DNA of 52,839 nt, from IMG/VR virus record IMGVR_UViG_2880372215_000003; one strand, 5' to 3'. The stretch comes from a virus (taxonomy: Duplodnaviria; Heunggongvirae; Uroviricota; Caudoviricetes). Made by a program: the position numbers. This document shows, piece by piece, positions 39,654 through 42,600 of the stretch; the stretch's first letter is position 1; the number at the start of each line of letters is the position of its first letter.

Positions 39654-42600
39654 TGAATACTGTTGGCAAATCGGCATTCGTGGAGGCTGTCGGTCGGGCG
39701 AGCGATGATGCGGAAGGTTACCTGGATTTTTTCAAAGGAGAAATCGGGAAAACACATCTGGCCCAGGAGCTGTGGACGCAGATTGATAACGGTCAGCTTG
39801 CGCCGGACCTGGCTGAAATCAGGACGTCCATTACGAATGTCAGCAATGAAATCACGCAGACCGTCAATAAAAAACTGGAAAATCAGAGTGCGGCAATCCA
39901 GCAGATACAGAAAGTTCAGGTTGATACAAATAATAACCTGAACAGCATGTGGGCCGTGAAACTGCAGCAGATGCAGGACGGACGCCTTTATATTGCGGGT
40001 ATCGGTGCCGGTATTGAGAATACGCCAGCAGGAATGCAGAGTCAGGTGCTGCTGGCGGCAGACAGGATTGCGATGATTAATCCTGCGAATGGCAACACAA
40101 AGCCGATGTTTGTTGGTCAGGGCGATCAGATATTTATGAATGAAGTGTTCCTGAAATATCTGACGGCTCCCACCATTACCAGTGGCGGCAATCCTCCGGC
40201 ATTTTCCCTGACATCAGACGGAAAGCTGACCGCTAAAAATGCGGATATCAGTGGCAGTGTGAATGCGAACTCCGGGACGCTCAACAACGTCACGATTAAC
40301 GAGAACTGTCGGGTTCTGGGAAAACTGTCCGCGAACCAGATTGAAGGCGATCTCGTTAAAACAGTGGGCAAAGCTTTCCCCCGGGACTCCCGTGCACCGG
40401 AACGGTGGCCATCAGGGACCATTACCGTCAGGGTTTATGACGATCAGCCGTTTGACCGGCAGATTGTTATTCCGGCGGTGGCATTCAGCGGCGCTAAACA
40501 TGAGAGAGAGAGCATACTGATATTTACTCCTCATGCCGTCTGATAGTGCGGAAAAACGGTGCTGAAATTTATAACCGTACCGCGCTGGATAATACGCTGA
40601 TTTACAGTGGCGTTATTGATATGCCTGCCGGTCACGGTCACATGACGCTGGAGTTTTCGGTGTCAGCATGGCTGGTGAATAACTGGTATCCCACAGCAAG
40701 TATCAGCGATTTGCTGGTTGTGGTGATGAAGAAAGCCACCGCAGGCATCAGTATCAGCTGAATTTTATAACCCATATACGGGCGCCAGAAATGGCGCCTT
40801 TTTTATTGCAGAAAAGCGAGAGGTAATTATGCGTAAACTTTATGCCGCCATTTTGTCCGCAGCCATCTGTCTGGCCGTATCCGGCGCGCCTGCATGGGCG
40901 TCTGAGCAGCAGGCCACGCTGAGCGCGGGGTATCTTCATGCCCGGACGAGCGCTCCCGGTAGCGATAATCTTAACGGGATTAACGTGAAATACCGTTATG
41001 AATTTACGGACACGCTGGGGCTGGTGACGTCATTCAGCTATGCAGGAGACAAGAATCGCCAGCTTACCCGTTACAGCGATACCCGCTGGCATGAAGATTC
41101 CGTGCGTAACCGCTGGTTCAGCGTAATGGCGGGGCCGTCTGTGCGCGTGAATGAATGGTTCAGCGCGTATGCGATGGCGGGTGTGGCTTACAGCCGTGTG
41201 TCGACTTTCTCCGGGGATTATCTTCGCGTAACTGACAACAAGGGGAAAACGCACGATGTGCTGACCGGAAGTGATGACGGTCGCCACAGCAACACGTCTC
41301 TGGCGTGGGGGGCTGGCGTGCAGTTTAACCCGACCGAATCCGTGGCCATTGATATTGCTTATGAAGGCTCCGGCAGTGGCGACTGGCGCACTGACGGTTT
41401 CATCGTGGGTGTCGGTTATAAGTTCTGATTAGCCAGGTAACACAGTGTTATGACAGCCCGCCGGTTCAGGCGGGCTTTTTTGTGGGGTGAATATGGCAGT
41501 AAAGATTTCAGGTGTACTGAAAGACGGCACAGGAAAACCGGTAGAGAACTGCACCATTCAACTGAAAGCCAGACGTAACAGCGCCACGGTGGTGGTGAAC
41601 ACGGTGGCCTCTGAAAATCCGGATGAAGCCGGTCGTTACAGCATGGACGTTGAGTACGGTCAGTACAGCGTTATTCTGTTGGTGGAAGGGTTCCCGCCGT
41701 CACATGCCGGGACCATCACCGTGTATGAAGATTCTCAACCGGGGACGCTGAATGATTTTCTCGGTGCCATGTCGGAGGATGACGTCCGGCCGGAGGCACT
41801 GCGTCGTTTTGAACTGATGGTGGAAGAAGCGGCGCGTCACGCTGAGGAGGCGAAGAAGAATGCCGGAGAGGCGGAGACGTCCGCGAGGAATGCCGGCATA
41901 TCAGCCAGTCAGGCAGAAGAGAGCGCGGCAAATGCTGACACTTCAGCAGGGGATGCATCGGAGTCAGCCCGGCAGGCGGCAGAAAGTGCAGCCGCTGCAA
42001 AGCAGTCAGAGGAGGCGTCCTCGTCCTCGGCCTCTGCGGCCGCTCAAAAAGCCAGTGAGTCATCACAAAGTGCAGCAGATGCTGAGTTGTCAAAAAAGAC
42101 GGCAGAAAGTGCAGCCGGTAATGCAGCCAGGGATGCAACGACCGCAACAGAAAAAGCCCGGGAGTCAGCAGAAAGCGCACAGTCAGCGGAACAAAGCAGG
42201 ATAGCGGCGGAAGAGGCCGTAAACCGAATCCCCACGGTGGTGGGGCCTCCCGGGCCAAAGGGGGAACCGGGTCCCGCGGGTCCTCAGGGGCCGAAGGGAG
42301 ATAAAGGAGAGCGTGGAGACACCGGTCCGGCAGGGGCAACCGGTGAAAGGGGGCCGGCAGGTGATGCTGGTCCGGCAGGCCCGGCAGGCCCGGCAGGCCC
42401 ACAGGGACCGAAAGGAGAAACAGGTGCGGCTGGCCCGGTGGGGGCAACCGGACCTCAGGGGCCGAAGGGCGACCCGGGGGAGACGCAAATACGGTTCCGT
42501 CTGGGGCCGGGAAACATTATTGAGACAAACAGCCATGGCTGGTTCCCGGATACAGATGGCGCACTCATCACCGGACTGACCTTTCTTGACCCCAAAGATG

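What the first reader, a model, noticed from the sequence alone, without database searches (positions are those of the whole stretch)
40502..40512. (GA)5G dinucleotide tract shifts the frame near the C-terminus of J
Unlike the homopolymer cases, this break is repaired by removing one GA unit. Dinucleotide slippage is not a usual sequencing error, so this may be a real slipped-strand mutation or switch affecting the receptor-binding end of the tail tip protein.
Basis: seen in the sequence. Interest (0 to 1): 0.35.

Follow-up and report, generated by a model that had tools for sequence, protein, structure and literature searches.

The report
Inherited GA-insertion frameshift in prophage J
The extra GA is a real two-base insertion, inherited by most E. 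coli O157:H7 strains, that helps kill the tail-tip (host-recognition) gene of an already defective, already annotated prophage, so it is ordinary gene decay and not a sequencing error or a switch.

Summary
The (GA)5G tract is at window 40502-40512 and is the only one in the window. The window is the lambda-like defective prophage Sp12 of E. coli O157:H7; bases 32598-48024 are 99.99% identical to Sakai Sp12.

The same (GA)5G, in identical flanks, occurs in about 215 complete genomes, including Sakai and EDL933. It is therefore not an error of this record.

The orthologous J in the older lineages (O55:H7 DEC5B, sorbitol-fermenting O157:H- 493/89) is intact, at 3477 nt and 1158 aa, with (GA)4G. 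All 53 phage records with this region also have (GA)4G.

The insertion follows codon 1076, inside the Pfam receptor-binding domain (aa 1028-1158). It gives [14 protein letters not shown] and removes 82 residues.

Removing one GA restores only the local frame. J in this window has two more -1 breaks: 38395-96, shared with Sakai, and 39638-41, private and in a homopolymer.

A switch is not supported. The tract is short and no (GA)6 was found. About 215 of roughly 218 typical O157:H7 copies are unchanged, and there are three rare variants. Sp12 does not excise or package (Asadulghani 2009).

The lesion is already annotated. Interest is low.

The parts
37288..40761 (+). J (tail tip / host specificity protein) pseudogene of prophage Sp12, read in four frame segments: 37288-38463, 38340-39656, 39653-40543 and 40546-40761
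   Evidence: Searches give the ORFs and frames 1,0,2,1. One search shows Sakai annotates ECs_2235/2234/2233 as 'phage host specificity protein'. One search shows RefSeq EDL933 annotates 'gpJ ... frameshifted'. One search gives the Pfam gpJ domain set on the intact orthologue.
40502..40512 (+). (GA)5G tract: a +2 (one GA unit) insertion relative to the ancestral (GA)4G, after codon 1076 of J
   Evidence: locate it. Searches give the alignments: window, Sakai and EDL933 have (GA)5G, while DEC5B, 493/89 and the PV15-279/F3113 Sp12 remnants have (GA)4G.
40541..40543 (+). Premature TGA stop created by the +2 shift. The out-of-frame tail is [10 protein letters not shown].
40546..40761 (+). Orphaned last 71 codons of the J receptor-binding domain (VRKNGAEIY...AGISIS*), annotated ECs_2233 in Sakai
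40364..40758 (+). Region coding for the C-terminal receptor-binding domain (PF12421, aa 1028-1158 of the intact orthologue), interrupted by the GA insertion. Coordinates were back-calculated from the stop codon.
   Evidence: Pfam. One search shows homology to solved lambda J and A8 gpJ C-terminal chains.
38395..38396 (+). First frame break of J: CC where EDL933, DEC5B, 493/89, TX 265-1 and 1613 have CCC (-1). Shared with Sakai.
39638..39641 (+). Second frame break of J: T4 where Sakai has T5 (-1). Private to this record and in a homopolymer, so probably an assembly error.
   Evidence: In one search all best RefSeq matches span 4002 nt for the 4001-nt query.
40829..41428 (+). lom (Ail/Lom outer membrane protein) immediately downstream of J, which confirms the lambdoid J-lom-stf synteny

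Best explanation
The tract is a genuine, vertically inherited frameshift mutation in the J gene of the defective lambda-like prophage Sp12 of E. coli O157:H7. The ancestral J, still intact in O55:H7 and in sorbitol-fermenting O157:H-, has (GA)4G encoding His-Glu-Arg-Glu-His inside the C-terminal receptor-binding domain. One extra GA unit was gained in the lineage leading to typical O157:H7. The most likely mechanism is slipped-strand mispairing during replication; this step is inferred. Gene conversion from a paralogous J cannot be excluded. The +2 shift replaces residues 1077-1158 with ten wrong residues and a stop, removing 82 of the 131 residues of the receptor-binding domain. The mutation has no evolved function. 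It is neutral decay in a prophage whose tail-tip module and other essential functions were already crippled. The tract drifts in length occasionally but does not work as a switch.
For: The sequence is real and shared:
- Window 32598-48024 is 99.987% identical to Sakai Sp12 and differs by one SNP and one homopolymer base; the GA tract is identical.
- The 601 bp around the tract are 100% identical in Sakai, EDL933, TW14359, EC4115 and many others.
- About 215 records carry the (GA)5 61-mer.

(GA)4G is the ancestral state:
- The orthologous J, in the same Lom, tail fibre, NleG and nleG7 context, is intact at 3477 nt with (GA)4G in DEC5B and 493/89.
- These lineages branch before typical O157:H7 in the stepwise model (PMC6256406).
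- About 1,670 other records and all 53 phage records with this region have (GA)4G.

The mutation is inactivating:
- In EDL933 the GA unit is the only frame lesion of J, 3479 against 3477 nt.
- The position falls in PF12421, the receptor-binding domain.

Selection on J was already relaxed:
- In DEC5B, 493/89 and EDL933 the L C-terminus, K and I are already missing upstream of J.
- Asadulghani 2009 scores Sp12 integrase, repressor, portal, head and host specificity as disrupted, and found no excision or packaging.
Against: No reads of this particular record could be inspected. This record does carry eight private one-base homopolymer deletions, so it is not error-free. The origin by in-situ slippage is inferred, not shown. 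Sakai Sp4 J is identical to Sp12 J for 99 bp to the left and 354 bp to the right of the tract, so gene conversion could create or erase the extra unit without leaving a trace. A second (GA)5 occurrence, in the Sp4 J of PV15-279 and F3113, and three variant alleles in typical O157:H7 show the tract is not perfectly stable.
Confidence: 0.9

Rival explanations
1. Sequencing or assembly artefact of this record: the true sequence is (GA)4G.
For: The record has eight private one-base deletions relative to Sakai Sp12, so its consensus is imperfect.
Against: All those private differences are single-base deletions in homopolymers. The GA unit is not private. It is identical in Sanger-finished Sakai, in EDL933 and in about 215 complete genomes produced with different technologies, and it is annotated there as split or frameshifted J.
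Confidence: 0.02
2. Phase-variable switch (contingency locus): reversible gain and loss of GA units turns the receptor-binding end of J on and off.
For: The tract does change occasionally.
- TX 265-1 has (GA)4 and an intact J. It shares a derived IS629 insertion junction with TX 376-2, which has (GA)5, so this is an apparent reversion.
- NCCP 13946 has (GA)3 in an otherwise Sakai-identical J.
- Strain 1613 has (GA)5 without the final G.
- PV15-279 and F3113 have (GA)5 in the Sp4 J.
Against: The tract has only 4-5 units. About 215 of roughly 218 typical O157:H7 Sp12 copies are unchanged, and no (GA)6 is found in 5,426 genomes. In this window and in Sakai, J carries further upstream frameshifts, so no repeat number gives a functional protein. 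EDL933-type prophages lack K, I and part of L. Sp12 is not excised or packaged. All phage records keep (GA)4. Some variants may be long-read assembly errors or gene conversion from paralogues.
Confidence: 0.04
3. Recoding: the two frames are joined during expression by programmed ribosomal frameshifting or transcriptional slippage at the GA tract.
For: The tract contains the rare Arg codon AGA, and the downstream frame stays open to the natural stop.
Against: Restoring the frame needs a -1 or +2 shift, and there is no X XXY YYZ slippery heptamer in CAT GAG AGA GAG AGC. The out-of-frame arrangement is not conserved: intact relatives and all phage records are simply in frame with (GA)4. Upstream frameshifts make it irrelevant in this window. 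From general knowledge, transcriptional slippage needs long homopolymers.
Confidence: 0.01
4. The same real mutation but a different origin: the (GA)5 allele entered Sp12 J by gene conversion from another resident lambdoid prophage J, not by slippage in situ.
For: J genes of O157 prophages are mosaic. The Sakai/window J differs from the EDL933-type J in blocks. Sp4 and Sp12 J are identical for about 450 bp around the tract. (GA)5 sits in the Sp4 J in the beta-glucuronidase-positive lineage.
Against: A first slippage event is still needed somewhere. In typical O157:H7 the only (GA)5 copy examined is in Sp12, and the Sakai Sp4 J has (GA)4. Identical flanks make the two routes indistinguishable from sequence.
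Confidence: 0.15

Closest known systems
Prophage Sp12 of E. coli O157:H7 Sakai (ECs_2233/2234/2235, 'phage host specificity protein' fragments), and the 'gpJ, frameshifted' pseudogene at the same locus in EDL933
   Same: It is the same element and the same lesion. Identity is 99.99% over 15.4 kb, and the GA tract and the -1 at 38395-96 are identical to Sakai. Asadulghani et al. 2009 already list Sp12 'host specificity' as disrupted.
   Different: This record has one extra private -1 in a T run of J, seven other private homopolymer deletions, a 387-bp shorter and partly mosaic tape-measure gene, and a different junction beyond ISEc8.
Bacteriophage lambda gpJ (tip attachment protein J; PDB 8iyk, 8xcj)
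   Same: It has the same domain architecture and the same gene order L-K-I-J-lom. The C-terminal domain is the receptor-binding domain.
   Different: The last ~130 residues differ substantially from lambda's, so the receptor need not be LamB. Here the gene is a pseudogene.
Simple-sequence-repeat contingency loci (slipped-strand phase variation, as in Haemophilus and Neisseria surface genes)
   Same: The elementary mutational event is the same: gain or loss of a repeat unit shifts the reading frame of a surface-recognition protein.
   Different: The tract is only 4-5 units. Repeat number is almost invariant within the clone. No repeat number yields a working gene in this window, and the element is a dead prophage.

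Membership tests
Lambda-like tail tip protein J (gpJ) | gpJ domain set: FNIII-A_GpJ, Phage-tail_3, Ig_J, Ig_J_second, Phage_Tail_Tip, Ig_GpJ_C | tested here: met
   All six Pfam families scored E<=1e-30 on the intact orthologue (DEC5B, 1158 aa), whose last ~600 nt match the window exactly apart from the GA unit.
Lambda-like tail tip protein J (gpJ) | Synteny: minor tail genes L-K-I upstream, lom and side tail fibre downstream | tested here: met
   Window ORFs 34889-35614, 35364-36368 and 36266-36946 precede J. lom at 40829-41428 and the tail fibre at 41487-42716 follow it. The Sakai annotation of the same DNA agrees.
Lambda-like tail tip protein J (gpJ) | One uninterrupted reading frame of about 1130-1160 codons | tested here: not met
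   There are four frame segments caused by -1, -1 and +2 lesions. It is a J pseudogene, not a functional member.
Prophage Sp12 of O157:H7 | Near-identity and collinearity with Sakai NC_002695.2 2204089-2255027 | tested here: met
   Identity is 99.4% over 30.5 kb and 99.987% over 15.4 kb, collinear except for a 387-bp deletion and the end beyond ISEc8.
SSR contingency locus (phase-variable switch) | Repeat tract long enough to be hypermutable | tested here: not met
   The tract has 5 GA units, against 4 in the functional allele. The threshold of several more units for dinucleotide tracts is from general knowledge. No mutation rate was measured.
SSR contingency locus (phase-variable switch) | Frequent repeat-number polymorphism among closely related isolates, with both ON and OFF states | tested here: not met
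   About 215 records have (GA)5. Single records have (GA)4 (TX 265-1), (GA)3 (NCCP 13946) and a +1 variant (1613). None has (GA)6.
SSR contingency locus (phase-variable switch) | The ON repeat number gives a functional product in the same genetic background | tested here: not met
   In this window and in Sakai two and one further frameshifts, respectively, remain upstream. The EDL933-type prophage lacks K, I and part of L. Sp12 is not excised or packaged.
Programmed ribosomal frameshift site | Slippery sequence, plus conservation of the two-frame arrangement in relatives | tested here: not met
   There is no slippery heptamer at the tract. Relatives and all 53 phage records are in frame with (GA)4.

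The most novel reading that the evidence does not exclude
The conserved (GA)4G run in the receptor-binding domain of this widespread J type is a recurrent mutational hot spot that toggles J genes of resident lambdoid prophages off, and occasionally back on. The toggling would occur by slippage or by gene conversion among the many J paralogues of one genome. Supporting observations are the apparent (GA)5 to (GA)4 reversion that restores an intact J in TX 265-1, the independent (GA)5 in the Sp4 J of beta-glucuronidase-positive O157:H7, and (GA)3 alleles elsewhere. Such toggling could affect which defective prophages can donate a working tail tip to others.
Probability: 0.05. Interest if true: 0.35.

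Novelty: already known. Interest (0 to 1): 0.1.

Why it matters
It matters little. It confirms that one of the frame breaks in this window is biology, an inherited pseudogenising mutation, whereas the homopolymer breaks look like assembly noise. That is useful for anyone annotating or polishing this record.

It also dates the lesion on the O157 stepwise lineage. The lesion is absent from O55:H7, from sorbitol-fermenting O157:H- and from the Sp12 remnant of beta-glucuronidase-positive O157:H7. It is present in nearly all typical O157:H7. The J genes of O157 prophages evolve as a mosaic, gene-converting family. No new mechanism or system is involved.

Tried and rejected
- A 63-nt (GA)6 query returned 'No match'. 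This is an artefact: the low-complexity filter masked the longer tract and left flanks shorter than the 28-nt seed. I repeated the test with 603 nt, which showed no (GA)6 allele.
- My recollection that lambda J itself ends in ...[13 protein letters not shown]... was wrong. Lambda's last ~130 residues differ, so I make no claim about LamB or any other receptor.
- My first attempt to anchor J by the first 30 nt of the DEC5B gene failed, because the 5' end of the Sakai/window J is a different mosaic block. I redid it with fixed coordinates.
- I first took TX 265-1 to be a basal lineage retaining (GA)4. I rejected this because it shares the IS629 insertion junction with TX 376-2, which has (GA)5, and differs from about 31 (GA)5 genomes only by the GA unit and one private lom SNP.
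- Programmed frameshifting and transcriptional slippage were considered and rejected (see the rival explanations).
- I did not run protein-database, structure-prediction or RNA searches beyond Pfam and PDB, because the DNA comparisons settled the question.

Full report
**Observation**

Window 40502-40512 reads GAGAGAGAGAG in the context AAA CAT GAG AGA GAG AGC ATA CTG. It is the only (GA)5G on either strand of the 52.8-kb window, and none appeared in 100 dinucleotide-preserving shuffles.

The ORF 39653..40543 runs through the tract and stops at a TGA 31 nt later. The ORF 40546..40761 carries the remaining 71 codons in another frame. Deleting one GA in silico joins them into ...[26 protein letters not shown]...AGISIS*. 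This is identical over the last 130 aa to an intact orthologue. The observation, and the statement that one GA unit accounts for this frame break, are therefore confirmed.

**What the region is**

The window is the lambda-like prophage Sp12 of E. coli O157:H7.
- Window 2082-32603 and 32598-48024 align collinearly with Sakai NC_002695.2 Sp12, at 99.4% and 99.987% identity.
- Over the 15.4 kb that contain J, the only differences from Sakai are one SNP (47795) and one missing T in a T run of J.
- Sakai annotates J as three 'phage host specificity protein' fragments (ECs_2235, 2234, 2233). RefSeq EDL933 calls it 'gpJ, frameshifted'.
- The intact orthologue has the full gpJ Pfam architecture, and PF12421, the 'C-terminal receptor binding domain', covers aa 1028-1158.
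- Its C-terminal third matches solved lambda J and A8 gpJ chains.

The tract corresponds to codons 1074-1076 (Glu-Arg-Glu), so the shift falls inside the receptor-binding domain. It replaces residues 1077-1158 with [14 protein letters not shown].

**Not a sequencing error**

The 601 bp around the tract are 100% identical in Sakai, EDL933, TW14359, EC4115, Xuzhou21 and dozens of other complete genomes. A 61-nt probe centred on (GA)5 is matched at 99% or better in 215 records.

This record does carry noise. Relative to Sakai Sp12 it has eight private one-base deletions. All are in G, C or T homopolymers, and there are no substitutions across the 27 kb that hold seven of the eight. The GA unit is not part of that noise.

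**Direction of the change**

A (GA)4-corrected 599-nt probe is matched at 100% in only five genomes.
- In O55:H7 DEC5B and sorbitol-fermenting O157:H- 493/89 it lies in the orthologous prophage, with the same Lom, tail fibre, DUF1076/NleG, nleG7 and IS256 neighbourhood. It sits inside an intact J of 3477 nt.
- In the beta-glucuronidase-positive O157:H7 strains PV15-279 and F3113 it lies in a truncated remnant of the same J.
- The fifth genome, TX 265-1, is treated under 'Is it a switch?'.

The first four represent lineages that branch before typical O157:H7 in the stepwise model: A1, then A4 and A5, then A6 (PMC6256406). About 1,670 further E. coli records and all 53 phage records that contain this region have (GA)4. 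(GA)4G is therefore ancestral and functional, and (GA)5G is a derived +2 insertion.

In EDL933 the J gene is 3479 nt against 3477 nt, and the GA unit is its only frame lesion.

**State of J in this window**

Removing the GA unit would not restore J here. The Sakai/window J is a mosaic relative to the EDL933-type J. There are blocks of dense differences over the first ~2.9 kb and complete identity over the last ~600 nt.
- It carries a -1 (CC for CCC) at 38395-96, shared with Sakai.
- The window adds a private -1 (T4 for T5) at 39638-41.
- No RefSeq complete genome shares that second lesion. All best matches span 4002 nt for the 4001-nt query.
- The frames run 1, 0, 2, 1.

**Relaxed selection**

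In DEC5B, 493/89, EDL933, TX 265-1 and 1613 the prophage already lacks the C-terminus of L and all of K and I immediately upstream of J. J was therefore functionally orphaned before the GA unit was gained.

Asadulghani et al. 2009 (PMC2669165) score Sp12 repressor, integrase, recombination, portal, head and host specificity as disrupted. They detected no excision, no packaged DNA and no transfer.

**Is it a switch?**

I looked for repeat-number variation.
- No (GA)6 allele exists in 5,426 complete genomes. The earlier 'no match' was a masking artefact.
- NCCP 13946 has a Sakai-identical J except for (GA)3.
- Strain 1613 has GAGAGAGAGA-CAT, which is +1.
- TX 265-1 has (GA)4 and an intact J.

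TX 265-1 is not basal. It shares the same IS629 insertion junction upstream of J with TX 376-2, which has (GA)5. Its 4.2 kb of J plus lom differ from about 31 (GA)5 genomes only by the GA unit and one private lom SNP. It is therefore an apparent reversion, a gene conversion or an assembly error.

Conversion is plausible because Sakai Sp4 J, with (GA)4, is identical to Sp12 J for 99 bp to the left and 354 bp to the right of the tract.

Conversely, PV15-279 and F3113 carry (GA)5 in their Sp4 J next to tccP2 and tRNA-Ser, where Sakai has (GA)4. Three further records carry (GA)3. SCU-484 and C25 were inspected, and C25 is compensated by an upstream -1. UID2309220031 was not inspected.

The tract is therefore mildly unstable, as expected for a short dinucleotide repeat in a multi-copy, recombining gene family. 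About 215 of roughly 218 typical O157:H7 copies are unchanged. No repeat number gives a working J in this window, and the prophage is dead. That is drift in a pseudogene, not phase variation.

Recoding is also rejected. There is no slippery heptamer, and the two-frame arrangement is not conserved in relatives.

**Mechanism, with status of each step**

- Shown: +2 relative to the ancestral allele; premature stop; loss of 82 of the 131 receptor-binding-domain residues; clonal inheritance.
- Inferred: origin by slipped-strand mispairing of one GA unit. Gene conversion from a paralogue is an untestable alternative.
- Inferred: neutrality, from the pre-existing loss of L', K and I and from the experimentally shown inactivity of Sp12.

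**Comparison with what is known, and verdict**

This is the already annotated J pseudogene of Sp12 (Sakai ECs_2233-2235; EDL933 'gpJ frameshifted'). Its disruption was already tabulated in 2009. It works like any frameshift pseudogenisation at a short repeat. It fails every defining test of a contingency locus or of a programmed frameshift site.

The novelty category is 'already known', and interest is about 0.1. The 'switch' suggestion is not supported.

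Noticed in passing
window 14541, 15274, 15449, 18616, 21446, 27248, 27504 and 39638-39641: There are eight private one-base deletions relative to Sakai Sp12. 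Every one is in a G, C or T homopolymer, and there are no substitutions across the ~27 kb (2082-29000) that hold seven of them. This pattern is typical of homopolymer under-calling in the assembly, so the frameshifts they cause are probably artefacts.
   Followed up: partly
window ~29000-32603 (tape-measure gene region): All 158 substitutions against Sakai Sp12 cluster here, together with 9-nt and 4-nt indels. 387 bp of the Sakai tape-measure gene (L003 19083-19469, 129 codons) are absent at the 32598-32603 junction. This is a mosaic and shortened tape-measure allele.
   Followed up: partly
window 47900-52839: Beyond the ISEc8 boundary the window is 100% identical to the right end of prophage Sp9 in Sakai (IS630 remnant, nleG, espM1, nleG9), not to Sakai's Sp12 left end. 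In strains PA20 and 8368 this arrangement is collinear with J. That indicates a large rearrangement between Sp9 and Sp12 relative to Sakai, of the kind reported for O157:H7 prophage-mediated rearrangements (abstract of PMC8743559).
   Followed up: partly
window 34915-40135 (L, K, I and the first ~2.9 kb of J): The Sakai/window Sp12 has complete L, K and I and a J whose 5' 2.9 kb differ in blocks from the EDL933-type Sp12, which lacks the L C-terminus, K and I. This suggests a recombinational replacement of the tail-tip module in the Sakai sublineage (about 50 records share it at 99% or better). The donor prophage was not identified.
   Followed up: partly
L009 6020-6045 (PV15-279) and L012 3821-3846 (F3113), J of the Sp4-like prophage next to tccP2 / tRNA-Ser: The same (GA)5G frameshift occurs in a different prophage's J in beta-glucuronidase-positive O157:H7, while their Sp12 J remnant keeps (GA)4G. 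In Sakai the pattern is the reverse. This is either an independent slippage event or gene conversion between paralogues.
   Followed up: partly
L010 (TX 265-1) 2084-5560, compared with L017 (TX 376-2) 3001-6479: TX 265-1 has an intact Sp12 J with (GA)4. It shares a derived IS629 insertion junction with TX 376-2, which has (GA)5. This is an apparent reversion that restores the reading frame, or a conversion, or an assembly error.
   Followed up: partly
L016 (NCCP 13946), L015 (C25), L008 (strain 1613), L014 (SCU-484): Other tract variants exist. NCCP 13946 has (GA)3 in a Sakai-identical J. C25 has (GA)3 compensated by an upstream -1, which gives about 40 scrambled residues in an open J ORF. Strain 1613 has (GA)5 lacking the final G. 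SCU-484 has (GA)3 in a prophage full of frameshift annotations. A fourth (GA)3 record, UID2309220031, was not inspected. Some of these may be long-read assembly errors.
   Followed up: partly
window 40263-40761 compared with lambda (L007 506-3904): The receptor-binding domain of this J type is clearly diverged from lambda J over the last ~130 residues. Its best match among the solved structures searched is 'A8 gpJ' (9wca). The receptor of this very common E. coli prophage J type was not determined here.
   Followed up: no
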